From a virus (lineage: Duplodnaviria > Heunggongvirae > Uroviricota > Caudoviricetes), in IMG/VR virus record IMGVR_UViG_2671181136_000006: a DNA stretch of 64,000 bases, one strand, 5' to 3'. Below, piece by piece: positions 3,583 to 64,000 of this stretch. A program made the position numbers and the translations under genes. The notes under the pieces are model-generated. The model searched no databases. It saw only the letters and a program-made list of their open reading frames with translations, and was not told the DNA's origin. The stretch's first letter is position 1; every line of letters begins with the position of its first letter.

Positions 3583-3701
3583 TCTTAACTCCGTTGTTTT
3601 CTAGTTGTGGTTATTTTCACAAATAAGAAAAGGTGGAAAACAATTTATTTAAGGCCACAACTTATGGCCTTTATTTATTCATGCCGAAGGATTTGTAGCG
3701 T

Positions 3702-4786: not shown

Positions 4787-4847
4787 GTGTTTTTCTCTTA
4801 TCGTTTAGTAACTACATTCTTACACAAATTAGGTAAGTATTTACCTA

Positions 4848-8750: not shown

Positions 8751-8898
8751 GTGGACTCCATCCAGTGTCAGAAAGAGTTGCGGCTGGCGATTGCCAGCCG
8801 CCTTTCTCGTTCCATCCTGGAACTGTGTCTTACCGACACATTGTCATCCTGACGCCGATAAGATACATGATTTAAAATAATAGGTAAACACTTACTTA

Positions 8899-9489: not shown

Positions 9490-10071
9490 ATAAACTCCTG
9501 AATCAAGCGCCGCGCCGATTTTTCCTCGCGCGTGCGCACACGCGTGCGTGTTAATAATTATTAAAATAAACAAATTACTTCCCAGAACAGGTTTTTATAA
9601 ACCTGAACTGAACGAACGAAGTGAGTGAAGTTCACCTCGAACGAAGTGAGAGGTTGTCTTTTCAGGTAATACTCTCCCAGGGAGGTGAGTATAAAAATCT
9701 CTCACCAACCTGGTCGTTTCATAACCTGAAAAGTTATGGTCTAAGTCTACTGCCAGCTTAGACTTGGGAAGTTATGGATGACAGCACCCCAGAACCGAGA
9801 TCTTCCCACACTTTATGAAGGGGAGTACTGGATTCAACCTCTCGAAACACCCCAGACTCGACAATCATAAAGTGACCCTTGTCTCTGCTCACTTTGGTTC
9901 CCCCTTCCCCGACACCTAAACGGCACCAGTTCTACGCTGGTAGTGAGCTTTTTTAAACCTGACGCCAGTGACGCTTACCCCCACCCATCAGGTCGAGTCT
10001 CCAGTCTACGACTGGAAACTATCAGATCTTAGCACTTACAATTCACTTTATGAATAGTTTGTACTTATCTA

Positions 10072-10326: not shown

Positions 10327-10404
10327 AAAATCGATTTTAAAGCGTCTGGTAAGGGGTTCTAGTGGATTCTGTAGTGATGTTCAGGTCTGGAGTCTCTGAT
10401 ACAA

Positions 10405-10468
10405 AGCTGCCTGCTTCCGTATATTAATAATTAATATGTAGTTATTTATATATACAGAAGCAGGCTAA
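10405..10468. repeat. about 60-bp element: 14-bp inverted arms (CCTGCTTCCGTATA) flanking AT-rich spacer; second copy at 56495-56555
   Basis: direct sequence comparison of the two loci. Confidence 0.7.
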
Positions 10469-10487
10469 TTACAGACGCCAGAACAAA

Positions 10488-11081
10488 CTAAGCAGCCTTC
10501 TTTGATGGTCTTTTTTTCCTGATCACATTCGCAGGATCATACCCTCCCAGACTTTTCATGACGTCCAAAGGGATCTTGCTTATAGAGTGCCCAGCGTCCT
10601 GACAGAATCCTCGAAAAACAACGAGCATACTGCCACCTGGGTTGATGTTTACTTCTACCTGACCCAGATTTACGTCAGGCTCGACAAACGCTACGCGGCC
10701 ACCAGACAGAATAATCGTCTCATTCGCACACTCTGTTGCACGCTCATACCACTTTGTATCTAGGGATTGAGGAATTAGCATCACTGTTGTAACTCCGCGA
10801 GCCTGCTCACGTATAGCCGCATCAATCCAGGGGTAGATTTTGGAGTAGGGTGGATTGAGGAAGGCAATTGTACCTGGCTGTCCCCATTCAGATTTCAAAG
10901 CATCACGCTCAACGCCTATGAAATTAGGCAGCTTTGCATTGTCCTTGTTGCAGGCAACGTCAACATCAAATGTCACTCCAAGATAACGTTGAATGGCAGA
11001 AAACAGCCAGTCAGGTGTTCTCCAGAGGTCACGAAGAGAGTTGTCGCGCTTTCGCTGTTTGATTTTTTCGGCTGCAATCAT
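10488..11081 (-). CDS. dam: Dam-family phage DNA N6-adenine methyltransferase
   Basis: 197 aa; NPPY motif and overall pattern of the small phage Dam MTase family. Confidence 0.7.
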   Translation of the reverse strand: MIAAEKIKQRKRDNSLRDLWRTPDWLFSAIQRYLGVTFDVDVACNKDNAKLPNFIGVERDALKSEWGQPGTIAFLNPPYSKIYPWIDAAIREQARGVTTVMLIPQSLDTKWYERATECANETIILSGGRVAFVEPDVNLGQVEVNINPGGSMLVVFRGFCQDAGHSISKIPLDVMKSLGGYDPANVIRKKRPSKKAA

Positions 11082-11264
11082 CTTCTTTCTCGATAGGTAA
11101 GTATATACCTATTTTTGCATTTGATTTTATGTCTGGCAATCAAATAAAACGCGCCAGAAATGCAAACGAGAAGCTCTCTGGCGCGTTTTTGTGGTGCTGG
11201 GTATGTGATTGGCTTACCCAGTACTATAAAGCTCTCTATGGGCTTTATTTTAAGTAGGGGAACG

Positions 11265-20599: not shown

Positions 20600-20672
20600 G
20601 TATCACCAAATAAAGAGGGCCACTAAATATAGTGGCCCATGTTAATAGATAAGTACTTACCTATCAATGAAA

Positions 20673-25216: not shown

Positions 25217-25470
25217 GTGTTTTTCCTTTGTGGTTATTTTGATACAAATTTTAAGAGCAATGAGAAGGTAAACAACTATGCATAACGGTATGTTAGGAAT
25301 GAAACGAGCGTCTTAATATACAAAATTTATAAGTAAGTATATACCTATTTATTGTGGCGCAACTTTGCTTGTCTGTATGACTAAAAATAAGACAGGATCA
25401 CTGTAGAACGCTATGAGAGCTATTTTGAGGAGGCGTAGATTCTATCTACGCCAATATACGATCTGGAGGG

Positions 25471-26300: not shown

Positions 26301-26315
26301 GAAGCCATGTTCATG

Positions 26316-26416
26316 TATGCTGTCAGCGGTAATTGATAGTCTGTCAGCGGTTCACCGTATGCTGCCAACTGTTTTTGGTATTCTGTCAGCGGCAAATCAA
26401 GTATGCTGTCAGCGGT
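26316..26416 (+). repeat. upstream iteron cluster (about 5 copies of TATGCTGTCAGCGGT and variants)
   Basis: copies at 26316, about 26337, about 26358 (partial), about 26389, 26402. Confidence 0.8.
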
Positions 26417-26436
26417 TGAATGACAAAGGTGTCCAC

Positions 26437-27531
26437 ATGTCCACAAAAAATAAAAAAGGTAAAAATAACAAAGAAGTAGAAGATAATCTCGACAACTTTG
26501 AAGAAGGTTCCCTTGAATTGTACACAGGGGAACTTGTCCCTAATAGCAACAATACAGTCCAACCAATTGCGTTGATGCGGCTGGGATTGTTCGTGCCCAC
26601 GCTCAAGGGGACAAAATACAGCAAGCGTAACAAGCCAAATGAGATCGATGCTTCAAAGGAGCTTGTTCAGCTCGAAGTAGCCCGTTCTGAAGGCTATTCC
26701 GATATCAAGATAACCGGTCCTCGTCTCGACATGGATCATGATTTCAAAACGTGGGTGGGCGTTGTGCGTTCGCTGGCAGAATACGGCGAACCTAACGGTC
26801 GTGTCGAGTTAAGCATCACGAAATTTGCGAAGTTTTGTGGCTATCCATCGTCACAGATCCGCAAAACACTCCGCGACCGGCTTACAAACAGTCTTTTGAA
26901 GATCATGCGTACAACTCTGTCTTTCCAGAGAACGTATGAAGAAAAGAACGTCGACGGCTCTAACAAGATCTCGCTTCTGATGGTGCACCTCATCAATAGC
27001 GTGGACTACAACGAGCAGAAAGATACGGTGGTGTTCTATGCAGAACCGAAGCTGGCCGAACTATATCGCTTTGACCATAAGGTTCTTTTGCAGTTAAAGG
27101 TTATCAATAAGCTACCACGCAAAGAAACAGCACAGGCTCTGTACACCTTCATCGAAAGTCTTCCAACCAAGCCTGCGCCGGTATCGCTTGCTCGATTGCG
27201 TGCGCGACTCAATTTGAGTAGCAGGAATGTCAGCTCGCAGAATCAGACTATACGCAACGGCTTAAAAGCTCTCCAAGATTTGGGCTATCTCGAATACAGC
27301 GAGATTAAGCGTGGGCGGTCGATCTATATCCAGATTCACAGCCGCAATCCAAAACTCAAAGTCGCACCGCCAAAACCTGAAGACATCGAACCCAAAAAAC
27401 TAGATGAGAAAGCTGGGGAAATTGATGCCAAACAGAACATTATCAACAAGATAACCGAACTTTCGCAGAATTTGACGCCTGAAAATATCAAGATGATTGA
27501 GATCCTTTCCAATAGTCTCAAACTGCTTTGA
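26437..27531 (+). CDS. repA: iteron-binding replication initiator (RepA/RepE-like)
   Basis: basic N-terminus, winged-helix-like pattern, flanked on both sides by 15-bp iterons; start set to ATG 26437 because the longer ORF runs through the iterons. Confidence 0.75.
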   Translation: MSTKNKKGKNNKEVEDNLDNFEEGSLELYTGELVPNSNNTVQPIALMRLGLFVPTLKGTKYSKRNKPNEIDASKELVQLEVARSEGYSDIKITGPRLDMDHDFKTWVGVVRSLAEYGEPNGRVELSITKFAKFCGYPSSQIRKTLRDRLTNSLLKIMRTTLSFQRTYEEKNVDGSNKISLLMVHLINSVDYNEQKDTVVFYAEPKLAELYRFDHKVLLQLKVINKLPRKETAQALYTFIESLPTKPAPVSLARLRARLNLSSRNVSSQNQTIRNGLKALQDLGYLEYSEIKRGRSIYIQIHSRNPKLKVAPPKPEDIEPKKLDEKAGEIDAKQNIINKITELSQNLTPENIKMIEILSNSLKLL

Positions 27532-28062
27532 TATGCTGTCAGCGGTGAAATGTATGCTATCAGCGGCTATTTTTCTGAAAAGTATGCTGTGAACGGTTAA
27601 AGATATGCTACCAGCGGTATAGTGAGATGAACGTATGCTGTGAGCGGTAAATCATCTATCACCACTCAATGCTCTGTCATACCTCCCCAGTGGTTACTAA
27701 CCTCGAAGAGTGCATTCCATATAGGTTTGCGCTCACTAACATTCTATTGCTATTGCGCTGATTGCTTGTAGTGAAAGGCATTTATTGCCTGCTACTCCCT
27801 GATAGAACGTATGCTGTCAGCGGTGTGTTATTGAGGAATTTTTGTTTGGATATGCTATCAGCGGTAATTAATGGTATATGTCAGACATTCGTATGCTGCC
27901 AGCGGTAATTTTGTTCTGGTTATACCCATACCGGGACACATTATTCATGCAATTTCTTAAGTATGCTGTCAGCGGTAAAAAATCGAGTAAAGTATGCTGT
28001 GAGCGGTGAGATAGACTCTCGATATGCTATCAGCGGTAGTTGATTGTGTATGCTGTCAGCGG
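27532..28062 (+). repeat. downstream iteron clusters (about 12 copies, two groups)
   Basis: TATGCT(G/A)(T/C)(C/G)A(G/A)CGGT at 27532, 27553, 27583, 27604, 27634, 27810, 27851, 27892, 27962, 27992, 28023, 28048; followed by GACTGCGGAACGTGCCGCAGTC hairpin. Confidence 0.8.
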
Positions 28063-28110
28063 TGACGACTATGAAATATGACTGCGGAACGTGCCGCAGT
28101 CAGTTTGCAT

Positions 28111-28834: not shown

Positions 28835-28873
28835 GATAGGTAGATACTAACTTATATAAACTTTACTGTAAAC

Positions 28874-32843: not shown

Positions 32844-32904
32844 GTGTTTTCCTATGTGGTTGTTATGCGAAAATAATAAGTAAGTACTTATATATTTTCA
32901 AGAG

Positions 32905-36311: not shown

Positions 36312-36428
36312 GTGTTTCTCCTTGTTGTGATTTGGCCGATGGCGCTATGCGCGTTGGGCTTTCGTTCATTCGTGGCTCTTTCGAGCTGTTAAATGATAGA
36401 TCAGTACTTACTTATTATCTATCAAAAA

Positions 36429-48443: not shown

Positions 48444-48519
48444 TGGTGCCGGTTAACGGACTCGAACCGCTGACATCCTGCTTACAAGGCAGACGCTCTA
48501 CCAACTGAGCTAAACCGGC
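48444..48519 (-). tRNA. tRNA-Thr (anticodon TGT)
   Basis: acceptor GCCGGTT/AACCGGC, D-loop AGCTCAGTTGGTAGAGC, anticodon loop CTTGTAA, T-loop GGTTCGAGTCC, CCA. Confidence 0.85.
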
Positions 48520-48523
48520 AATT

Positions 48524-48610
48524 TGGTGGGGAGTGATGGAGTCGAACCACCCGAGTCGCCATGACAGTAGATTTACAGTCTACCCCGCTGCCCCTACGGA
48601 CTAACTCCCC
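48524..48610 (-). tRNA. tRNA-Tyr (anticodon GTA), long variable arm
   Basis: acceptor GGGGAGT/ACTCCCC, anticodon stem GTAGA/TCTAC loop CTGTAAA, T-loop GGTTCGACTCC, CCA. Confidence 0.8.
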
Positions 48611-48615
48611 TAAAT

Positions 48616-48690
48616 TGGCGATGGTGGGTGGATTCGAACCACCGACCAGTTGGTTAACAGCCAACTGCTCTACCGCTGAGCTACACCATC
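48616..48690 (-). tRNA. tRNA-Asn (anticodon GTT)
   Basis: acceptor GATGGTG/CACCATC, anticodon stem GTTGG/CCAAC loop CTGTTAA, T-loop GGTTCGAATCC, CCA. Confidence 0.85.
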
Positions 48691-49468
48691 AATTCAGCAC
48701 TGCCAGTATTTATTACTCAACAGTGCCAATCGCGACGGTTTAGTTTCTGCCAGGAAACGCACCGCTACTTGCACTTTTCGTTAGTGCCAGACGCTTTCGA
48801 CTTCGCTCAATAGTAGAAGGCAAAATCTTTAAGTAGATGATGTTTCTGAGGACAGCACCTACTTTGTAATTTATACAATGTGATGTATGGAATCATTTGT
48901 TGTGAAAACAGGCACCAATGGCAACAGTGGTTAAACCTACACAACAATCCTGTCTTCACAACGTTGAGGCCACTACTCCGATTGAATGTTTGCCCAACAT
49001 GTTACATATCAACGCTCGCCGGTATCTCTGTGAATAGAACCTTAGAATTGATAAAAATGTAATGGCCTCAACGTTATGTGCTGGCTAACCATACCAGCCG
49101 GGCTACGTCGCCGCTTTTTAACCCAGTATAAACGACATAATTGAACAAAATGACGTAACAGGATGGGCGGTCAGTGGCTAAGAATCCGGGAGTCATATGG
49201 AGTTGAAAATATACCAACCGCCCATTCTGTTACTTCATCGGAGGGAACATGAATGTTCCCTCCTGCGTTCTGCAATCACACTCGCTCAGTGTGTCCCATT
49301 TCGGTAACGAGGCTGGAAACTGACCTCGCTGGTGTTTGGCTTATTAGGCTACTGCCAGATAGACTTCTTCGTTTGCACTTGTATTTAAGTTCAAACAGTC
49401 GCGTCTCAACGAAAACAAAGTCATCTTATACACAAAAGATAAGTAAGTAAATACTTATCAATATGTTT

Positions 49469-52919: not shown

Positions 52920-52994
52920 ACCAACTCCTAGCTAACAGATGAAAGTATTCTCACAGAAAGATAAGTAATCATCTACTTATTTTAAAGGTGATTG

Positions 52995-54176
52995 TTATGA
53001 TAGAGCCTTAATGCCCAAAACCTTGCTTTGCAACTCCAACTGTTTGGTATACGGTTTTGCCCGATAATAGGCTTTGATGATTTGCTCTGGCGTTGCATCG
53101 CCCGGGTCGAGTCCTTCCTCGCCCAAACACGCCACTTTGACATTAAGACCAATACTGGTCAGTCGCCTGGCTGCGGCCATCGTGTTGCGTATAGCTTGCT
53201 TTTCACTATCCCACATCATGATCACATTACGTAATCCACGCGCCTTGAGCGTCAGGAACGCGCCCAACTGATCTTCTGCATCCTGAGTGGTGTTGCCAGA
53301 TAGATGCATCCCGAACGTTCCTATTGGCTCCACGTAATCACGTAATGTTTCTTCGTCGAAAATAGCTCGTTTGACCCCCATAACATCGAACGCACCCTCA
53401 CAGACAACTACAGTCTGTTTGCCGACTGCATTATGGCCGTTGTAGAGAAATTTACCTGAAGCTGGAAGTTGCATAGGAAAGAGGTAGCGGCGTTCTGCTG
53501 TACCGGTAATGTCTCGTCCCTGAAATGTCTTCATTACCCCATCCAGATCGTAAACCGGTATCAGTATTCGCATATCGAATATCTGTCCTTTAACCTGATC
53601 TGTATACGGATCTACATAGGCGTGCTTGCCTTCGACGCAGTATCGTAGGTCAAAATACTTTGCCATTTCAGGCGATATGTTTCGTTCAACCAGATAGTCT
53701 GGAAGACGGCCATCTATAGGAAGCTCGTAATGACGAGGGAGTGCAACTGGCTCCTCTAACTCGACTGTGCTTGCAAGCACTAGCTCTTCTTTCTTTGGTG
53801 CCCACCCCTGGGAAAGAAGGGCGTTCTGCACATATTCCTCGAACTGTCGTCGTGATTTGCCGCTGTAGTGCTTGAGGAAGACCAGCTTATTGAACTGAAT
53901 CTCTTCGGGATGATCACCAGCGAAGCATTTACCGACGCCACTGGTCAGATTGAAATATACCTTCCAGTTGGAGCTGCCACATACCGGACACTCCTTGATA
54001 TTCACTTCACGACCGCGAGTACTCACGCCTCCACGTCGATAAACGATACCTTCAGTATCCAACCATTGTTCAAAATCTAATTCGGTAATTAGCTCTTTCA
54101 GCTCGCTCACGATAATTCCACTTTTAACAGGCAATATTGTGACCAACCTAAATGTTGATATAACATAAAGGCTCAT
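52995..54176 (-). CDS. DNA primase (zinc-ribbon + Toprim)
   Basis: CPVCGSS...C zinc ribbon, Toprim VVVCEGAFDVMG; start set to internal ATG 54176 which has the conserved upstream motif. Confidence 0.65.
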   Translation of the reverse strand: MSLYVISTFRLVTILPVKSGIIVSELKELITELDFEQWLDTEGIVYRRGGVSTRGREVNIKECPVCGSSNWKVYFNLTSGVGKCFAGDHPEEIQFNKLVFLKHYSGKSRRQFEEYVQNALLSQGWAPKKEELVLASTVELEEPVALPRHYELPIDGRLPDYLVERNISPEMAKYFDLRYCVEGKHAYVDPYTDQVKGQIFDMRILIPVYDLDGVMKTFQGRDITGTAERRYLFPMQLPASGKFLYNGHNAVGKQTVVVCEGAFDVMGVKRAIFDEETLRDYVEPIGTFGMHLSGNTTQDAEDQLGAFLTLKARGLRNVIMMWDSEKQAIRNTMAAARRLTSIGLNVKVACLGEEGLDPGDATPEQIIKAYYRAKPYTKQLELQSKVLGIKALS

Positions 54177-54257: not shown

Positions 54258-55598
54258 TTAGGTAACGTCTAAGATTCGCTCAATGAAGCGCATTTGTTCG
54301 AGGTTTTGTTTAACGCGAATGCTGATCCCTCCCTGCTGGTTACGTGAACCAGCAAAGTAGAGACGAGCCTCTCCTTTCGCTTCTTCTTCTTCGGTTTTGT
54401 TGATCGTTATTACCAGGTCAGCAATACGTACTTTTTCGATGTTGTCGGCAGCGTGCATCATTGTGGCAACTTCTGACGCGCCACCTTCACGGTTTGTCTG
54501 CGATGCCGTGATCCCAGCAACGTTATGCTTGTCATAAAGAGCACGTAAATCGGTGTAGATACTACGAATGTTGGCGCGATCATCACGAAGGTCATAACTG
54601 GCACGCATCAAATCTGCGTAGTCGACAACAACCATGTCAGGCACCATGCCATTGGCTTTCATACTGTTAAGCATACGGTCCAGATCTGCCGGTGACATAC
54701 TTCCTGACGGACGCTCAACAACCCACAAACTACCAATCCCCTTCGTGGCTCCCAACTCTGCCAACTTACGATGAACCTCATCGCGCCGTTCCACCAGCTT
54801 GGACATTTCTGTCTCCGACAATCTTGCATCAAAACGGTCGGATAAAATGGTGGTGTGAACCTCCAGCGAGAGATACAGAACATTGTAGCCAGCAAGCGTT
54901 GCGTTTATGGAAAACTCACCCATTGCGGTCGATTTACCGGATTTAGCGAACCCCATGAAGAGCACCATTTCGCGCTTTGCCCAGCCTTTTTGGTACAGCA
55001 ACCTATCGAGAAGAGGGAGTCCAGTTGTAATACTGTTTGGTACATACTCCTCTGAAGCCTCATATTCACGCGCTTTCAATCGCTCACTTGCGGAGGTGTA
55101 GTAGTCATAGATTCCGGTCGCTTCGTTCGATCCAATCTGCTGAACCTTGGCCATGATTGCCATCGCCCCCTGAAAGTCGCCTTTCTCTTTCAGTTCAGCA
55201 GCCTTAATCAGAGCATCATCAAACGCTACACTTTTTGCGAAGGTTGATACCTGGTCAACCATGTACGAGGTATCGGACAATTTTTCTGCAAGAATGCGCT
55301 TAAACGCAGCAACAACATCGGCGAATAGTTCCTCACGGATAGTCTTATCGCGTTTCGCACGCTTAAGCATATCCAGAATTGCAGATGAAGAGGGCGCGCT
55401 CTTGTACATACGGTAATAGCCCGAAACCATATTAACCAATATGGCATTGGCCGCATTGGCAAACTGGCTAGGCACAACCAGATCTCCCGCACGAGTAAGA
55501 AACTCGTGATCACGACAAAAATATGCCGTCAGTCTGTTCTGGAAATCTTCATCAAACTCTTCGGACAGCCCGCGTCCTGTATGGCAAAGTTCGGTCAT
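54258..55598 (-). CDS. DnaB-like replicative helicase
   Basis: Walker A GFAKSGKST, Walker B VVVDYADLM, RecA-like core in C-terminal half. Confidence 0.75.
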   Translation of the reverse strand: MTELCHTGRGLSEEFDEDFQNRLTAYFCRDHEFLTRAGDLVVPSQFANAANAILVNMVSGYYRMYKSAPSSSAILDMLKRAKRDKTIREELFADVVAAFKRILAEKLSDTSYMVDQVSTFAKSVAFDDALIKAAELKEKGDFQGAMAIMAKVQQIGSNEATGIYDYYTSASERLKAREYEASEEYVPNSITTGLPLLDRLLYQKGWAKREMVLFMGFAKSGKSTAMGEFSINATLAGYNVLYLSLEVHTTILSDRFDARLSETEMSKLVERRDEVHRKLAELGATKGIGSLWVVERPSGSMSPADLDRMLNSMKANGMVPDMVVVDYADLMRASYDLRDDRANIRSIYTDLRALYDKHNVAGITASQTNREGGASEVATMMHAADNIEKVRIADLVITINKTEEEEAKGEARLYFAGSRNQQGGISIRVKQNLEQMRFIERILDVT

Positions 55599-55641
55599 GT
55601 GCTTTCCTTTGTTTTTTAAACAAATTGTTTTCTAGTATTAG

Positions 55642-56391
55642 TTAATTAGATAGGGGATCAATAAACCGCCGTGCTTCTTCCAGTTCTTCTGGAAAGTGGG
55701 CGGAAATAAGGCGCTCTGGAACGATTTCCATTAGCCAGATAGCGGAGAAAATTGCGCGTATGCGCTTGCTGCGAGGGATGGTGCGCAAACGCTCCAGAAT
55801 CCACTCAAAATAGCTTTCCTGAATCGGGTTGAACTGCATGTCTCCCATATGCTTAAAGCTAACCAGAGAGTCATCCAGACGGGTTGTTGCGCGTCTGGCT
55901 AATTTCTCTTCAAATATCTCAATCAGTTCTGGCTGCCATAAATGCTGTGGGCGCGGCAGCTTGTCCCACAGCCGTCGTGCAGCTGCGGAAAGAACGGTGG
56001 AGATAAAGTAGTCGTATGAGCAGCAATAGCGGTCAGCAAACTGGCGTGCTTTCCATAGAGACGTTTTATTGGCAGTCGACAACTCCTGATAAGGCAGGCG
56101 TTTTAACCCGGTGGTGAACGGAGCTGTTTCAAAGTGTTCGCGACCGTGCGTCAGCATGATATTTGAGTACTGACGTTTGTATGCCTCCGTAAACAGACAG
56201 GTGGCCATAAGAGGATGCATGTCGCGGTAATCAAACCACTTCGTCTCGAAGAGTTCAGCCTCATCTTTACAGCGCGACAAACCAATGTTTTCAGCGACCC
56301 ACTTGTCCATAACAGCGGTATTCCACTCTGTCATGAAGTCGTACTGGTCGTTGTCGATGGTATCGAAAAAGATTTGGCTCATGTGGCTCAC
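55642..56391 (-). CDS. hypothetical protein
   Basis: 249-aa ORF. Confidence 0.4.
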   Translation of the reverse strand: MSHMSQIFFDTIDNDQYDFMTEWNTAVMDKWVAENIGLSRCKDEAELFETKWFDYRDMHPLMATCLFTEAYKRQYSNIMLTHGREHFETAPFTTGLKRLPYQELSTANKTSLWKARQFADRYCCSYDYFISTVLSAAARRLWDKLPRPQHLWQPELIEIFEEKLARRATTRLDDSLVSFKHMGDMQFNPIQESYFEWILERLRTIPRSKRIRAIFSAIWLMEIVPERLISAHFPEELEEARRFIDPLSN

Positions 56392-56494
56392 CCGGTAGGT
56401 AGTTACTTACTTATCACAATGAGCGGATGATAGCGACTGGTGGCAGTTTTTGGAAGTGAAAACGGAAGGGAGTTGTTCTGGTGGTGTCTTTTAA

Positions 56495-56555
56495 AAGACC
56501 TGCTTCCGTATATATTTAATAAGTTACTTATTATTTATATACAGAAACAGGCTCC
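56495..56555. repeat. second copy of about 60-bp inverted-arm element (see 10405-10468)
   Basis: CCTGCTTCCGTATAT...TATACAGAAACAGG in divergent intergenic region. Confidence 0.7.
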
Positions 56556-56656
56556 TAATGGATACCAAGAACAACATAATTTGACTCCAACCCCAGATGC
56601 TATGTCATTGACAGATTTATCAAGGGAGATCATGTTAGAATCAGTGTTTTAGCCTC

Positions 56657-57730
56657 GTGGATATTGTCACCATGCGCATGAATAGACTTCCAGGATATGG
56701 CCTTCCCGAACTGGCTTTTTGGCCTCAGCCTAAATATGAACGGAATAAATGGTCGATGTTCTGTCTGAAACTCCGTAATGATGGAACCCTTGCTTGGTAT
56801 CGGCGATATGTTGATCGTGGTATGCCAAACCACGCTTTTGATGACGACTACGATAACTATCCTGAAGCAAGAAAAGCGGCATTAGAGCTGAATAAAAACG
56901 TGAGCTTTGACATTGAAAAACTTCCTCTATCTATGTTTCAAAAGAAGTCATTGCGTTTGAAAGTTGACAAAGCACTCAAAGCCAAATCACGTCTCATGGA
57001 TGAAGAGCATATAATGCTCAACGAAGCAATTAAGGCACACGCCAACGATCCGCGAGTGACATTAAATGAGTTAATAATTAACCCAGATTACGAAACTTTG
57101 CGTCAACCCCTTTTTGACGTGCTAAGCGAGATGCCTTACTTACATTTTGTTTTTCTTCCCAAATTCCAAGTTTCACTTCAACTCGTTGCTCCTAACACTT
57201 GGGAATGTTCATATAACAACAAAGCTAAGACAGCGAAGATCTGCTACCAAGAACGCATAGCCAGAGGTTTTGGTTTATCAGGTGCTGCACATTGGGGAAA
57301 AACAAAAGCGACTATTCGCTCAATGCTTCTGCCGCGTGCTAACCGGTTACTGCAACTCGCCAGCGTAAAAAGAATGCTGGATGAAGCTCTCAGGAATGGG
57401 CAAAAGGTACTGGTTGTTGGCAACTTTGTTTTCTGGTTTGAGGACAAAAATCAGGTAGGTTGGAGTGTTAAAGTTGCTAGCGAAAGCGAAACCACCTCAA
57501 GAGGCAATACGCTCTGGAAAGAAGGAACTATCATTTCAAAAAATCACGGTCGAATTGTCGTGCTGCCGTATACAAAAGAAAACGGTAAACATGTAAAAGG
57601 TTATACCAAGAATGCCCCTAACGACGGCAACGCAATTCCGAGACATAAGGATGAGTATGTCGAGTTGCCCTTTGAAATTTTGGATGGTGACTTGATGTTC
57701 AGTCTGTTCGGTGAGCTTAACTACGAATAG
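56657..57730 (+). CDS. hypothetical protein
   Basis: 357-aa ORF. Confidence 0.4.
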   Translation: MDIVTMRMNRLPGYGLPELAFWPQPKYERNKWSMFCLKLRNDGTLAWYRRYVDRGMPNHAFDDDYDNYPEARKAALELNKNVSFDIEKLPLSMFQKKSLRLKVDKALKAKSRLMDEEHIMLNEAIKAHANDPRVTLNELIINPDYETLRQPLFDVLSEMPYLHFVFLPKFQVSLQLVAPNTWECSYNNKAKTAKICYQERIARGFGLSGAAHWGKTKATIRSMLLPRANRLLQLASVKRMLDEALRNGQKVLVVGNFVFWFEDKNQVGWSVKVASESETTSRGNTLWKEGTIISKNHGRIVVLPYTKENGKHVKGYTKNAPNDGNAIPRHKDEYVELPFEILDGDLMFSLFGELNYE

Positions 57731-57790
57731 CTTTCATAGAACGAAATATTTCTAAGGCTGTCCAATGCAGACCAGCCTTAGAGATTTATA

Positions 57791-58150
57791 TCAACCTTTC
57801 TTCATTAACTCGCGTTTAATTTCATCGGTACGCATCGTGACATCGGCAGCGGTGATCGCCTCATTCAATTTCACGATGTCCTCGATTTCCTGCGGTGACT
57901 TCTCTGCCAGATGGAAAATGGCTGCTCGAATCACGTCAGAACGAGTGAACTTCTCGAAGCGAGGGATGAACTTCATCATCTCCAGCAGTTCGAAGTATTC
58001 GTCCTCCAGTGACATTGTGCGGCTTTTAATTTTCTCTTTGCCACGAGTCGGGCGTCCCTGTGGTCTGACTGGTTGGCGCAAAGGAGTTGTGTTCTTAGCC
58101 GGTGCATCAGGCTCTTTGCGCTTTGCTAGGTCACCCATTTTCATGGACAT
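57791..58150 (-). CDS. small basic DNA-binding partition protein (ParG/RHH-like), candidate centromere-binding protein
   Basis: 119 aa, basic disordered N-terminus, directly downstream of and overlapping parA stop. Confidence 0.45.
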   Translation of the reverse strand: MSMKMGDLAKRKEPDAPAKNTTPLRQPVRPQGRPTRGKEKIKSRTMSLEDEYFELLEMMKFIPRFEKFTRSDVIRAAIFHLAEKSPQEIEDIVKLNEAITAADVTMRTDEIKRELMKKG

Positions 58151-58818
58151 TATTCTTCTTCCTCCAGACTCAACAGATAATCTACAAATTCTTCAAACTC
58201 GGCTTCCGCCTTTTTGTCGCGCTCGCTACCGGTCATTTCAAAGATAGAACGACCAGACTCTTCCGCATCATCATAGACGTTGCGGTTATATAGATTGACT
58301 GGCGCAGACTCGATTCCAAACGTCTCAACAATCTCTTTAGCCGCCAGAATGCGAGACACTTGTGATGGCAAAGCCGGGCACTGGTTCATGACCGCGCGGA
58401 CCTTCACTTTATCGTTTACATTGCGAACATTGTCGATAATAGGATCGATGTCACGTAAAGATTTCAAATCACGACGCTTAGGACGCAGCGGGATAATGAT
58501 AACGTCAGCCATCAGCATCGCTTGTCGCTGAATTTCGGAGTCGAAGCCACCAGCATCTACCACTACAAACTCAGCTCTACCCTGAAGCGATTTTAGGTGC
58601 TTAATGATGTCATCCTGAACGTATGCAAAAGGAATCAGCTCAAGGTCTTCGTTCTGTCGACGGTCTTCACACCAGCTCGTTGTCGTGCGCTGAATATCTA
58701 TATCGGTAATATAAACCTTCTTCTTCTTTTTGACTTTCAGGCAAACGGCAATTTGCTGGGCAACGGTGGATTTGCCAGGCCCGCCCTTTGTGCCGCCAAC
58801 CACAAAGATCTTGGTCAT
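58150..58818 (-). CDS. parA: ParA/Soj-family partition ATPase (small type Ib)
   Basis: deviant Walker A GGTKGGPGKST, 222 aa. Confidence 0.85.
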   Translation of the reverse strand: MTKIFVVGGTKGGPGKSTVAQQIAVCLKVKKKKKVYITDIDIQRTTTSWCEDRRQNEDLELIPFAYVQDDIIKHLKSLQGRAEFVVVDAGGFDSEIQRQAMLMADVIIIPLRPKRRDLKSLRDIDPIIDNVRNVNDKVKVRAVMNQCPALPSQVSRILAAKEIVETFGIESAPVNLYNRNVYDDAEESGRSIFEMTGSERDKKAEAEFEEFVDYLLSLEEEE

Positions 58819-60979: not shown

Positions 60980-62557
60980 TTATCCTCGTTTTTCCCAAAA
61001 CTGTTTTGCCAGTTCGCTCAGAGCGCTAGTTAACTGAGCGACAGATTTCGCACTTTGCAAATTATTCTGCCCGGTCTGTACATTGGTATCAGCAGCATCG
61101 CGTATATTGATAATACTGCGGTTTATGTCTTCACTTACTGCTCCCTGCTGCTCGACCGCAGTCGCTATTTGCGCGTTCATGTCGGTAATTTCGTTAACGC
61201 GTTGGCCAATTCCATCAAGAGCTGTAGCTGCTTCCTCTGCGTGAGCTACACTCGTGTGCGCTTGCCGACTACTTTGCTCCATGACTGTAACAGCGGATTG
61301 CGCTCGCTCTTGTAGAGCGCTGATCATGCTTTGAATATCCGTTGTCGATTGCTGTGTGCGAGCAGCAAGACTGCGAACCTCATCGGCGACAACAGCAAAA
61401 CCACGCCCCTGCTCACCAGCACGCGCGGCCTCAATTGCTGCGTTGAGTGCCAACAAATTCGTTTGCTCGGCGATCCCTCGTATAACGTCAAGAACTTTTG
61501 ATATCTCGTTACTTTGACCTTCAAGCTCATGAATAACCTGAGTGGCTTGCCTAATTTCACCTTCAAGGGCAGTGATTGACTGGCTTGTGTGGGCTACCAG
61601 ACGCTGGCCAGATGCCGTCTCAGTGTCTGCTCTTCCGGCCGCATCTGCAGCATGCTGTGCATTGCTCGCAACCTCTTGAATGCTTGCCACCATTTGGTTT
61701 ACTGCCGTTGCTATTTGATCTGTCTCTGCCTGCTGCTCAACTGTAAGTACATTGCTTGACTCAATATCCTTTAGTAGGCCTCGGGTGTGTTCGCTAAGCC
61801 GATTTGATGCATCACCTATGCGACCTACTATGGCGCCTGTTTCAGCTTGCATCATTCGTAAAGCAAACTCTATTTGGCCAAACTCATCGGTGCGCCCAGT
61901 GTAGAGGGATTGACTTAATGGGTTATTGGAAATATTCCTGGCTCTTTCAACCAGTCTTCCAAGAGGAGAGAGAATAGCCAAAACACTAACAGAGCTTAAG
62001 CTTCCTGACATTAAAGTGGCTAACAATAAGCTGCTTATTGATGTATCAGTAAGCATGCCGGCAGCCATTGCGCTTGATATAATACTACCCCATATGAGCA
62101 AGAGTATTTTCACGGAAAAGCTAGCAGCCAATTTCGGCCTCGCGGCCTTCCCGCTTCTCAATTGAGCATATAATTTTTCCGCAGCCAAAACCTGCTCAGG
62201 TTCAGGCTTGGTCCTTACAGACTGGTATTCAACAATCGAACCATTCTTAGCTATTGGCGTTACATAAGCACTTACCCAATAGTGGTCGCCATTTTTACAG
62301 CGATTTTTTACTAGCCCCATCCATGAGCGGCCAGATTTTAATGTACTCCACATATGCTCAAATGCAGCAGGCGGCATATCTGGGTGTCTTACGATGTTGT
62401 GAGGCTGGCCTAATAGTTCTTCCTCAGTGAAACCACTGATTTTAATGAAGTCAGGATTAACGTACGTGATATGGCTTTGAGGGGAGGTAGTCGAAAGAAT
62501 ATTGGCATCTTTTGGGAGTTCTAAGTTTCGACCCGTCACTGGTAAATTCTGGCGCAT
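60980..62557 (-). CDS. methyl-accepting chemotaxis-like protein with N-terminal PAS domain (Tn1721 orfI-like passenger)
   Basis: Aer-like PAS N-terminus, TM region, highly conserved MCP signalling motif [37 protein letters not shown]. Confidence 0.85.
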
Positions 62558-62866
62558 AAGAACCTCAAGGGTTGGCTGTTTTATTTTATTGTTTTCGGCA
62601 TTAAGCCCAATTTCTTGAGCGTTACGATAAAGCTAGCATGGAAACGATAGGTGCAAGCAAGTTAAGGGTTGCATCGCGCATGTCAATCTAGGCTATACCC
62701 TAACTTGATGTCAGGCAGGGCCGCGCCGCTTCGTCAGAATAGAGTCTGCTTTCCCATTTTTTGACACATGCCCGCGAAGGTTATAGATTTCAGCCTGACA
62801 GAAATGGGCTTTGAGGCACAACGGAACAGAAAGTGCACTTAAGCCGCCTTCAACCAAGGAGACATC
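62558..62866. promoter_or_regulatory. res site / divergent promoter region
   Basis: between divergent orfI and tnpR; contains TGTCAGGC / GCCTGACAG inverted subsite-like repeats. Confidence 0.5.
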
Positions 62867-63427
62867 GTGCAGGGGCACCGCATCGGCTACGTCCGGGTCA
62901 GCAGCTTTGACCAGAACCCGGAACGCCAGCTGGAACAAACCCAGGTGAGCAAGGTGTTCACCGACAAGGCATCGGGCAAGGACACCCAGCGCCCCCAGCT
63001 CGAAGCGCTGCTGAGCTTCGTCCGCGAAGGCGATACAGTGGTGGTGCACAGCATGGATCGGCTGGCCCGCAACCTCGATGACCTGCGTCGCTTGGTACAG
63101 AAGCTGACTCAGCGCGGCGTGCGCATCGAGTTCCTGAAGGAGGGCCTGGTGTTCACTGGCGAGGACTCGCCGATGGCCAACCTGATGCTGTCGGTGATGG
63201 GGGCCTTCGCTGAGTTCGAGCGCGCCCTGATCCGCGAGCGGCAGCGTGAGGGCATCGCCTTGGCCAAGCAGCGTGGCGCGTACCGGGGCCGCAAGAAAGC
63301 CCTGTCCGATGAGCAGGCTGCTACCCTGCGGCAGCGAGCGACGGCCGGCGAGCCCAAGGCGCAGCTTGCCCGCGAGTTCAACATCAGCCGGGAAACCCTC
63401 TACCAGTACCTCCGCACGGACGACTGA
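62867..63427 (+). CDS. tnpR: serine resolvase TnpR
   Basis: IGYVRVSSFDQNPERQ with catalytic Ser, C-terminal HTH; near-identical to Tn21/Tn1721-subgroup resolvases as recalled; GTG start. Confidence 0.95.
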   Translation: MQGHRIGYVRVSSFDQNPERQLEQTQVSKVFTDKASGKDTQRPQLEALLSFVREGDTVVVHSMDRLARNLDDLRRLVQKLTQRGVRIEFLKEGLVFTGEDSPMANLMLSVMGAFAEFERALIRERQREGIALAKQRGAYRGRKKALSDEQAATLRQRATAGEPKAQLAREFNISRETLYQYLRTDD

Positions 63428-63430
63428 CAC

Positions 63431-64000
63431 ATGCCGCGTCGCTTGATCCTCTCGGCCACGGAGCGGGACACCCTGCTTGCGCTGCCGGAAAGCCAGGATG
63501 ACCTGATCCGCTACTACACCTTCAACGACTCCGACCTGTCGCTGATCCGCCAGCGACGCGGCGACGCCAACCGCCTCGGCTTCGCCGTGCAGCTCTGCCT
63601 GCTGCGCTACCCCGGTTACGCGCTGGGAACCGACAGCGAGCTGCCCGAGCCGGTCATCCTGTGGGTGGCGAAGCAAGTCCAGGCCGAGCCGGCGAGCTGG
63701 GCAAAGTACGGCGAGCGCGACGTGACCCGTCGCGAGCATGCCCAGGAACTGCGCACCTACCTGCAACTGGCCCCGTTCGGCCTGTCCGACTTCCGCGCCC
63801 TGGTGCGCGAGCTAACCGAGCTGGCCCAGCAGACCGACAAAGGCTTGCTGCTGGCCGGTCAGGCCCTGGAGAGCCTACGGCAGAAACGACGCATCCTGCC
63901 GGCGCTGAGCGTGATTGACCGGGCCTGCTCGGAAGCCATTGCGCGAGCCAATCGGCGGGGCTACCGCGCCCTGGTCGAACCACTCACGGACTCGCATCGG
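63431..64000 (+). CDS. tnpA: Tn3-family transposase TnpA, N-terminal part (truncated by window end)
   Basis: [44 protein letters not shown]... matches N-terminus of Tn21-subgroup TnpA as recalled; ATG 4 bp after tnpR stop. Confidence 0.9.

What the first reader, a model, noticed from the sequence alone, without database searches (positions are those of the whole stretch)
56495..56555. Second copy of the 60-bp inverted-arm element in a divergent promoter region
This copy lies between the divergent genes starting at 56391 (minus) and 56657 (plus), next to a dispersed-palindrome copy at 56395-56416. Several regulatory elements co-occur in one roughly 260-bp intergenic region beside the partition and helicase loci.
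Basis: seen in the sequence. Interest (0 to 1): 0.4.

Follow-up and report, generated by a model that had tools for sequence, protein, structure and literature searches.

The report
Conserved terminator-like hairpin in phage-plasmid
The 53-bp palindrome is real and is one of three conserved copies that punctuate SSU5-type phage-plasmid genomes; this copy most likely acts as a strong transcription stop that shields the phage helicase-primase operon from read-through, which is fairly ordinary biology with some unexplained extra features.

Summary
An imperfect palindrome lies at 56499-56551, with 26-nt arms 85% complementary. It shares its 14-nt outer arms (CCTGCTTCYGTATA) with a copy at 10410-10464. 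A copy of a dispersed palindrome lies at 56396-56413.

The window is an SSU5-like phage-plasmid of E. coli. The element is larger than reported, about 104 nt (56472-56575), because an outer inverted repeat encloses the inner hairpin. It occupies three orthologous sites per genome: after the Dam methylase, upstream of terS, and upstream of the helicase-primase operon.

It occurs in 260 of 5,426 complete E. coli genomes, always on plasmids, with a median of 3 copies, and is never annotated.

The "divergent promoter" context is not conserved. The right flank is a hypervariable island, and in SSU5 and Cyrano the upstream gene is co-directional.

On the minus (transcribed) strand the hairpin has a GC-rich base followed by UCUUUU. 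All arm variants at this site remain paired through G-U on that strand. Published Cyrano RNA-seq shows a 10- to 230-fold drop across it.

Best reading: an intrinsic terminator or insulator (confidence about 0.55).

Not explained by simple termination: the outer repeat, the sequence conservation and concerted evolution among copies, and the terS copy that lacks a U-tract.

The parts
56499..56551 (-). Inner imperfect palindrome (copy 2, 'site C'). It has 14-nt GC-rich outer arms, CCTGCTTCCGTATA / TATACAGAAACAGG on the + strand, around an AT-rich and largely self-complementary centre (TAATAAGTtACTTATTA).
   Evidence: On the minus strand the hairpin folds at -32 kcal/mol with z = -8.
56493..56498 (-). 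U-tract that directly follows the hairpin on the minus (transcribed) strand. The RNA reads ...GGAAGCAGG-UCUUUUAAAAGA.
   Evidence: T-rich tails follow the hairpin in 24 of 25 unique site-C relatives.
56472..56488 (-). Outer inverted-repeat arm on the helicase side (GTTGTTCTGGTGGTGTC on the + strand). It pairs with 56561-56575.
   Evidence: fold. (profile match 56474-56576). The TCTGG / CCAGA motif is conserved at all three sites.
56561..56575 (-). Outer inverted-repeat arm on the island side (GATACCAAGAACAAC on the + strand).
   Evidence: BLAST homology with most E. coli relatives ends at about 56552, yet most of the unrelated island flanks (not all) still carry a complementary TCTGG-type strand.
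56396..56413 (-). Copy of the dispersed palindrome TARGTAAGTANNTACYTA, 14 nt upstream of the ATG at 56382. It is a separate element, probably an operator or regulatory site.
   Evidence: 12 sites in the window against 0.06 expected.
55642..56382 (-). First gene downstream of the element on the minus strand (246 aa, SSU5_038 / CYRAN_31 homologue, phrog_2500, function unknown). It is followed by the DnaB-like helicase (54258-55598) and the primase (52995-54110).
56672..57730 (+). Accessory gene of the variable island (352 aa, phrog_22329). It is absent from SSU5 and Cyrano at this position.
10410..10464 (-). Copy 1 of the inner palindrome ('site A'). It lies 24 nt downstream of the stop of the Dam methyltransferase gene (10488-11081, minus) and 107 nt upstream of the next minus-strand ATG (10302).
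10384..10488 (-). Extended copy 1, including the outer inverted repeat GGTCTGGAG (10384-10392) / CCAGAACAAAC (10478-10488).

Best explanation
Copy 2 is a factor-independent (intrinsic) transcription terminator or insulator that is read on the minus strand. RNA polymerase arrives from the partition operon and the accessory island. It transcribes the 5' arm, the AT-rich tip and the 3' arm. The resulting 23-26-bp hairpin has a GC-rich base (CCUGUUUC / GGAAGCAGG) followed directly by UCUUUU, and the transcript is released there.

This keeps the lytic replication operon (246-aa gene, DnaB-like helicase, primase) silent while the plasmid-prophage expresses its maintenance genes. The operon's own promoter and the dispersed-palindrome site lie in the 117 nt between the hairpin and the ATG.

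The same hairpin family marks two other module boundaries in these genomes.

Shown here: the anatomy, the conservation, the strand-specific U-tract, and the transcript drop in a close relative. Inferred: that the 3' ends map to the U-tract, and that the hairpin is the cause of the drop.
For: 1. Hairpin and tail on the transcribed strand. The inner hairpin folds at -32 kcal/mol (z = -8) and the extended structure at -47.8 kcal/mol (z = -10.5).
2. Position at the other copies. The element lies just after a stop codon between co-directional genes at copy 1, in SSU5 and in Cyrano.
3. U-tract. T-rich tails follow the hairpin on the transcribed strand in 24 of 25 unique site-C sequences and about 20 of 22 site-A sequences, whichever way the core is oriented.
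4. Stem variation at site C. Every deviating cell in the 14 core pairs is a C>U change that keeps a G-U pair on the transcribed strand. The counts are UG:3, UG:1 and UG:10, with 0 broken pairs; on the other strand these would be C-A mismatches. The family profile also scores higher on the minus strand, 75.9 against 56.6 bits.
5. Published RNA-seq for Cyrano (PMC9928086, S1 Table). The co-directional genes CYRAN_28-30 read log2 5.2-10.8 and CYRAN_31 reads 2.3-4.2, where the floor is 2.32, in all 10 samples. This is a 10- to 230-fold drop across a 193-nt spacer. Its only strong structure is this element.
6. Deeper relatives. The Raoultella relative shows a compensatory change in the stem, a G-C to C-G flip. 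Relatives that lack the element have a different GC-rich hairpin plus T-run at the same place.
7. Core length varies between 51 and 57 bp. A hairpin tolerates this, but a dimer bound to B-DNA would not.
Against: - The terS-proximal copy (site B) has no U-tract on either strand.
- The outer inverted repeat lies beyond the U-tract, so it cannot be part of a terminated RNA.
- Arm sequences, and even apical sequences, are conserved and co-vary among the three sites within a genome. Termination alone does not require this.
- Klebsiella-type site-A copies carry C-A mismatches on the transcribed strand.
- In the lineage with 54% amino-acid identity the repeated unit no longer folds well (z from -0.6 to +1.4), yet it is still repeated.
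- In this window no co-directional gene abuts the element; only read-through from parAB, 1.2 kb away, would reach it.
- The simple terminator scanner does not call it, because its stem and loop exceed the scanner's limits.
- The RNA-seq is from a relative, is at gene level only, and does not map 3' ends.
Confidence: 0.55

Rival explanations
1. Conditional, factor-recognised RNA element. The conserved hairpin, with its outer helix, would be bound as RNA by a phage or host factor. Candidates are an antiterminator, or RNase III acting on read-through transcripts. The three module boundaries would then be closed in the plasmid state and opened or processed during lytic growth.
For: - The arms are identical across Salmonella, E. 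coli, Klebsiella and a relative with 64% amino-acid identity.
- Arms and tips evolve in concert among sites of one genome.
- The outer helix can only form in read-through RNA. It adds about 10-14 bp, giving a long, interrupted duplex typical of RNase III substrates.
- One lineage has compensatory changes in the outer helix at site B, while site A of the same genome keeps the ancestral sequence.
- The three sites bracket the late, the replication and the regulatory modules.
Against: - No candidate factor was identified, and no lytic-cycle transcript data are available.
- Stem conservation can be explained by the cost of single mutations in a helix, combined with gene conversion.
- Covariation in the outer helix rests on one lineage only.
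- Some site-C copies lack the 5' outer strand.
Confidence: 0.2
2. DNA-level site. The nested inverted repeats would act in double-stranded or cruciform DNA. Possible roles are a lytic replication origin next to helicase-primase, part of a packaging (pac/cos) signal, a dispersed centromere, or a conserved linker for recombination at module boundaries.
For: - The sequence-conserved half-sites CCTGCTTCYGTATA vary independently on the two arms.
- The AT-rich centre between GC clamps resembles an unwinding or cruciform-prone region.
- The SSU5 reference record is cut inside the site-B copy, 116 nt upstream of terS.
- At site C the element is the exact boundary of a hypervariable island with about 14 unrelated flank classes.
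- Orientation relative to transcription differs between lineages at site A.
Against: - Half-site spacing varies by 6 bp.
- No cognate protein or iteron array is present.
- TerL is of the T4/Terminase_6N type, which suggests headful rather than cos packaging.
- Cyrano's record start is probably copied from SSU5, and other phage records do not start there.
- The plasmid origin, with 13 iterons, is elsewhere, at 26.3-28.1 kb.
- GC skew shows no inflection at the element.
- Three cos or lox-like sites per genome would be hazardous.
Confidence: 0.15
3. One reading: an operator or regulatory site of a divergent promoter controlling the genes at 56382 (minus) and 56672 (plus).
For: In this plasmid the element lies in the 289-bp spacer between divergent genes, beside a dispersed palindrome.
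Against: - The plus-strand gene belongs to a variable island, and the divergent arrangement is absent in SSU5, Cyrano and most relatives.
- The other two copies lie between co-directional genes.
- No promoter-like hexamers are predicted in the element.
- An extended -10-like TGTTAGAAT for the plus-strand gene lies downstream of the element, at about 56630-56640 (seen directly in the sequence).
Confidence: 0.05
4. A selfish or relic repeat (MITE-like) with no function of its own.
For: It has nested terminal inverted repeats, a length of about 105 bp and several copies per genome.
Against: - The copies sit at the same three orthologous sites in all genomes, with none on chromosomes.
- No target-site duplication is visible.
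- Purifying selection acts on the arms across deep divergence.
- The U-tract is maintained on the transcribed strand.
Confidence: 0.05

Closest known systems
Rho-independent (intrinsic) terminators, including bidirectional ones with an A-tract upstream and a U-tract downstream
   Same: - GC-rich stem base followed immediately by a U-run on the transcribed strand.
- Position after a gene's stop codon.
- A large drop in transcript level across it in a close relative.
- An A-run upstream (AAAAGA on the + strand) that pairs with the U-run.
   Different: - The stem is unusually long (23-26 bp) with an AT-rich tip.
- The same stem sequence is kept at three sites and across genera.
- A second, outer inverted repeat encloses the U-tract.
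- One family member (site B) has no U-tract.
PeSL (promoter-early stem-loop) cassettes at gene-shuffling hot spots of T4-type phages (from my own knowledge, not tested here)
   Same: A repeated, sequence-conserved stem-loop regulatory cassette at the borders of hyperplastic regions. Recombination between such cassettes could explain the variable island that abuts site C.
   Different: - There are only three copies, and they sit at fixed sites.
- No associated conserved promoter was detected.
- No sequence similarity was examined.
RNase III processing hairpins of phage polycistronic mRNAs, such as T7 early R sites and lambda sib (from my own knowledge)
   Same: Intergenic hairpins of about 50-110 nt, with more than two helical turns of duplex interrupted by internal loops, lying between co-directional genes.
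   Different: No cleavage data exist. The U-tract argues that most transcripts end there rather than being processed.
Enterobacterial intergenic repeats (REP/BIME, ERIC) and MITEs
   Same: Imperfect palindromes of about 100 nt in transcribed intergenic regions. Such repeats can act as terminators or as mRNA stabilisers.
   Different: - There are no chromosomal copies in 5,426 E. coli genomes.
- The positions are fixed and orthologous.
- No Rfam family matches; only sub-threshold hits to generic miRNA hairpin models were found.
Dispersed palindromic centromere sites of phage-plasmid N15, and symmetric cosN / lox-type sites (from my own knowledge)
   Same: A few palindromic sites scattered over a phage-plasmid genome. 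One copy lies next to the terminase genes.
   Different: - Half-site spacing is variable.
- The element is separated from parAB by a variable island.
- A U-tract is linked to the direction of transcription.
- No binding protein is known.

Membership tests
Intrinsic (Rho-independent) terminator | A stable stem-loop with a GC-rich base on the transcribed strand | tested here: met
   The minus-strand hairpin folds at -32 kcal/mol with z = -8. Its base is CCUGUUUC / GGAAGCAGG.
Intrinsic (Rho-independent) terminator | A U-tract immediately 3' of the stem | tested here: met
   Copy 2 is followed by UCUUUUAAAAGA. Tails are T-rich in 24 of 25 site-C relatives. Copy 1 in this window has a weak tail (CAGCUUUGUA), and site B has none.
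Intrinsic (Rho-independent) terminator | Lies downstream of a transcription unit on the same strand | tested here: inconclusive
   This is met at copy 1, in SSU5 and in Cyrano. In this window the nearest co-directional genes (parAB, 57791-58818) are 1.2 kb upstream, with an antisense island gene in between.
Intrinsic (Rho-independent) terminator | Transcripts end at the site | tested here: inconclusive
   Gene-level RNA-seq of Cyrano shows a 10- to 230-fold drop from CYRAN_30 to CYRAN_31 across the element. The 3' ends are not mapped, and the data are not from this plasmid.
Known RNA families (Rfam 15) | A match at or above a family's gathering score | tested here: not met
   Only three tRNAs pass in the whole window. 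The local E-value search gives only sub-threshold hits to miRNA-precursor models.
Palindromic operator or centromere bound by a dimer on B-DNA | Fixed spacing of the two half-sites | tested here: not met
   Core length ranges from 51 to 57 bp among relatives.
Palindromic operator or centromere bound by a dimer on B-DNA | A cognate DNA-binding protein | not testable with these tools
   The neighbouring genes have no recognised DNA-binding domains.
cos/pac packaging site | Adjacent to the terminase genes, with virion DNA ends mapping there | tested here: inconclusive
   Only site B, which is outside the window, is next to terS. The SSU5 record is cut inside it, but TerL is of the T4-like headful type and other phage records start elsewhere. 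Copy 2 is 33 kb from terS.
Host intergenic repeats (REP/ERIC) or MITEs | Many copies at variable chromosomal positions, with target-site duplications for MITEs | tested here: not met
   All 846 places are on plasmids and none on chromosomes, with a median of 3 per genome. The same three orthologous sites are occupied throughout.
Sigma-70 promoter (divergent promoter region) | -35 and -10 hexamers with 16-18 nt spacing inside the element | tested here: not met
   No promoter-like sites are predicted in 56300-56750.

The most novel reading that the evidence does not exclude
The three sequence-conserved, double-helix elements could form a genome-wide punctuation system of SSU5-type phage-plasmids. 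A single trans-acting factor would recognise all three boundaries (late, replication and regulatory modules). That factor could be an RNA-binding antiterminator or processing enzyme, or a DNA-binding protein acting at cruciforms. It would switch the boundaries between closed in the plasmid state and open during lytic growth. The same conserved sequence would also serve as the recombination linker at which accessory islands are exchanged.
Probability: 0.2. Interest if true: 0.65.

Novelty: new member of a known kind. Interest (0 to 1): 0.35.

Why it matters
SSU5-like phage-plasmids are common in clinical Enterobacteriaceae and carry resistance genes, yet their regulation is almost unstudied.

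If the reading is right, this hairpin is the barrier that lets maintenance genes and accessory cargo be expressed in the plasmid state without switching on lytic replication genes. It also marks the exact border of the hot spot where cargo genes are swapped.

It gives a concrete 104-bp target for testing how the plasmid and phage programmes are kept apart. If only simple termination is involved, the finding is useful annotation rather than new biology.

Tried and rejected
- **G-U versus C-A strand asymmetry as a general test for an RNA role.** It is clean at site C but contradicted by Klebsiella-type site A. I use it only for this copy.
- **cos site.** This idea came from the SSU5 record being cut inside site B. 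It is weakened by the T4-like TerL, by Cyrano's start probably being copied from SSU5, and by other phage records not starting there. Literature searches found no data on termini.
- **Promoter inside the element.** None is predicted.
- **Iteron-like arrays of the CCAGA motif around the element.** Only the single outer inverted repeat is present.
- **Origin signal in GC skew.** None is seen.
- **Known RNA family.** None matches.
- **Host repeat.** Excluded.
- **Repetition of the Morganella-type hairpin in its own genome.** A 15-mer scan gave only chance hits and a single copy.
- **Scan for the CCTAGCTCTGTATA variant.** Most hits were chance matches; only one 108-kb contig was informative.
- **Consensus fold of the outer helix across unrelated site-C flanks.** MAFFT could not align the variable side, so only the inner helix was scored.
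- **Look-up of protein P0027.** It failed.

Full report
**What the window is**

The 54-59 kb stretch is 99-100% identical to E. coli plasmids of about 110 kb that are non-mobilizable. It is 82% identical to Salmonella phage SSU5 and about 98% identical, outside an island, to phage-plasmid Cyrano. The window is therefore part of an SSU5-type phage-plasmid. Most of its genes are on the minus strand.

RefSeq annotation of a 99.7%-identical plasmid gives these features:
- a 246-aa gene at 55642-56382 (minus), followed by the DnaB-like helicase and the primase
- a 352-aa gene at 56672-57730 (plus)
- a small parB-like gene at 57791-58150 (minus) and parA at 58150-58818 (minus)

**The observation**

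An imperfect palindrome lies at 56499-56551. Its arms are 26 nt long, 85% complementary, with 1 nt between them.

The first copy is at 10410-10464. The two copies share the 14-nt outer arms CCTGCTTCYGTATA. That pattern gives 6 hits at up to 2 mismatches against 0.63 expected, and four of them are the four arms. The AT-rich centres of the two copies differ.

The neighbouring dispersed palindrome is also real. TARGTAAGTANNTACYTA matches at 56396-56413 and occurs at 12 sites in the window against 0.06 expected.

**The element is larger and belongs to a family**

A scan of IMG/VR for the arm pattern returned 120 stretches. I extracted 104 two-armed instances from these. Clustering their flanks showed that they fall into three orthologous genomic sites:
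- Site A is copy 1. It lies between the Dam methyltransferase gene and a 76-aa gene.
- Site B lies upstream of the small-terminase-like gene and is outside this window.
- Site C is copy 2. It lies upstream of the 246-aa/helicase/primase operon.

Single contigs carry combinations of A, B and C.

In 5,426 complete E. coli genomes the 104-nt element is found in 260 genomes at 846 places. All places are on plasmids, the median is 3 per genome, and none is annotated.

At all three sites a second, outer inverted repeat encloses the inner palindrome. It reads G(G/T)TCTGG...CCAGA(A/C)C. A family profile matches 56474-56576 and 10382-10489 and nothing else in the window. In window coordinates the full elements are 56472-56575 and 10384-10488.

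**Context**

The helicase-side flank of site C is conserved in 42 instances. The other flank falls into about 14 unrelated classes. Most E. coli relatives match the query only up to about 56552. The element is therefore the fixed border of a hypervariable island.

The inner palindrome lies 117 nt (site C), 107 nt (site A) and 116 nt (site B in SSU5) from the next start codon.

**Evidence for a terminator read on the minus strand**

On the minus strand the hairpin has a GC-rich base and is followed directly by UCUUUUAAAAGA. The inner hairpin folds at -32 kcal/mol with z = -8, and the extended structure at -47.8 kcal/mol with z = -10.5.

T-rich tails follow the hairpin on the transcribed strand in 24 of 25 unique site-C sequences and in about 20 of 22 site-A sequences. 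This holds even where the core is in the opposite orientation.

At site C, every deviation in the 14 core pairs is a C>U change in the 5' arm that keeps a G-U pair on the transcribed strand. No pair is broken. On the plus strand the same changes would be C-A mismatches.

Published RNA-seq of the LF82 lysogen provides the main experimental evidence (PMC9928086, S1 Table). The co-directional genes CYRAN_28-30 (parA operon) read log2 5.2-10.8. CYRAN_31, the next gene and the homologue of 55642-56382, reads 2.3-4.2 against a floor of 2.32, in all ten samples. The 193-nt spacer between them contains this element as its only strong structure.

At deeper divergence:
- The element persists with T-A arms in a relative with 64% amino-acid identity.
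- A Raoultella relative shows a compensatory G-C to C-G flip.
- A lineage with 54% identity has three changed positions in one arm.
- Relatives with 48-50% identity have other GC-rich hairpins plus T-runs at the same place.

Core length varies from 51 to 57 bp. That is easy for a hairpin to tolerate and awkward for a dimer bound to B-form DNA.

**What simple termination does not explain**

- Site B has no U-tract on either strand.
- The outer inverted repeat lies beyond the U-tract, so it cannot be part of a terminated RNA.
- The arms are identical across Salmonella, E. coli and Klebsiella.
- Arms and tips change together among the sites of one genome. SSU5 sites B and C share ACTAAGTKACTTATTA, and E. 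coli-type sites B and C share AATAAGTAACTTATTA. The 54% lineage carries CAGAGCTAGG at three or more copies. This points either to gene conversion or to a shared trans-acting factor.
- In the 54% lineage the unit no longer folds better than shuffled sequence, yet it is still repeated and still followed by T-runs.
- Klebsiella-type site A has C-A mismatches on the transcribed strand.
- The SSU5 reference record is cut inside the site-B copy. This could be a physical end or an assembly break. TerL is of the T4-like type, and I found no termini data in the literature.

**Comparison with known things**

No Rfam family matches. The element is not a host repeat, because it has no chromosomal copies. 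No promoter is predicted inside it. No iteron array surrounds it, and GC skew shows no signal there.

The element works most like an intrinsic terminator with an A-tract/U-tract arrangement. As a family it also resembles repeated stem-loop cassettes at plastic regions of T4-type phages and RNase III sites of phage polycistronic mRNAs. Both resemblances come from my own knowledge and were not tested.

**Verdict**

The feature is real and strongly conserved, but it has not been annotated or described in anything I could find. Copy 2 is most likely a strong terminator or insulator that shields the helicase-primase operon from read-through out of the partition operon and the accessory island (confidence about 0.55).

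A sequence-specific second role, at the RNA or DNA level, remains possible; the two rivals together carry about 0.35.

Interest is moderate to low. It is useful annotation of a clinically common mobile element, and the three-site concerted conservation is the one feature that is still puzzling.

Noticed in passing
window 4830-4847, 8881-8898, 11094-11111, 20646-20663, 25330-25347, 28837-28854, 32877-32894, 36397-36414, 49440-49457, 52962-52979, 56396-56413: The dispersed 18-bp palindrome TARGTAAGTANNTACYTA occurs at about 12 sites against 0.06 expected. Two copies end 13-14 nt upstream of minus-strand start codons (56382 and 11081). The tip of copy 2 (TAAGTtACTTA) looks like a shortened version of it. 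It is probably the operator of a global regulator, in the manner of P1 C1 operators or mycobacteriophage stoperators.
   Followed up: partly
window 26315-28067: There are thirteen copies of a 16-20-nt iteron, GTATGCTGTCAGCGGT, in two clusters that flank a gap of about 1.1 kb. This is the plasmid (RepA-type) replication origin, and it is distinct from the element studied here.
   Followed up: no
window 7257, 7969, 18206, 31727, 55615-55646, 58851 (and inverted copies at 3621, 6533, 44142): A second dispersed motif, TTTAAACAA(G/A)TTGTTTTCT, which is itself a small palindrome, occurs in intergenic regions. One copy lies between the 246-aa gene and the helicase gene, and another lies upstream of parA.
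   Followed up: no
SSU5 NC_018843 positions 103,2xx-103,299 and 1-40 (loci L125 3730-3800, L123 1-40): The linear SSU5 reference record starts and ends inside the site-B copy of the element, 116 nt upstream of the small-terminase-like gene. The Cyrano record starts at the same base. This could be a physical DNA end or an assembly break at a repeat or hairpin.
   Followed up: partly
window 56552-57790 and the corresponding flank in loci L001-L122: The side of the element facing parAB is a hot spot for gene exchange. There are about 14 unrelated flank classes among 42 relatives, and the junction falls at the element.
   Followed up: partly
L205 540-870, L160 1-300, L179 10010-10100 (contig IMGVR_UViG_3300045988_137065): In a lineage whose 246-aa protein is 54% identical, the unit has changed arms (..TATACAGAGCTAGG). 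At site C it occurs as two inverted copies about 190 nt apart, each followed by a T-run on its own strand. A third copy lies elsewhere in the same genome. These units are poor hairpins.
   Followed up: partly
L126 3787-4023, L129 3787-4041: Morganella-type relatives carry a small gene with a faint or weak Hfq-family hit between the 246-aa gene and the helicase gene. This gene is absent from the E. coli and SSU5 type.
   Followed up: no
window 48447-48690: Three tRNA genes lie in a row on the minus strand. In Cyrano the equivalent genes are annotated as Asn, Thr and Ser.
   Followed up: no
window 62001-64000: G+C rises to 0.575 here, against 0.42-0.50 elsewhere in the window. This may be foreign or inserted DNA.
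   Followed up: no
Cyrano CYRAN_81 (record 78657-78791), roughly window 9,750-9,900 on the minus strand: A 135-nt 'hypothetical' ORF just downstream of site A is about 12 times above background in lysogen RNA-seq (PMC9928086, S1 Table). It may be a small RNA rather than a protein gene.
   Followed up: no
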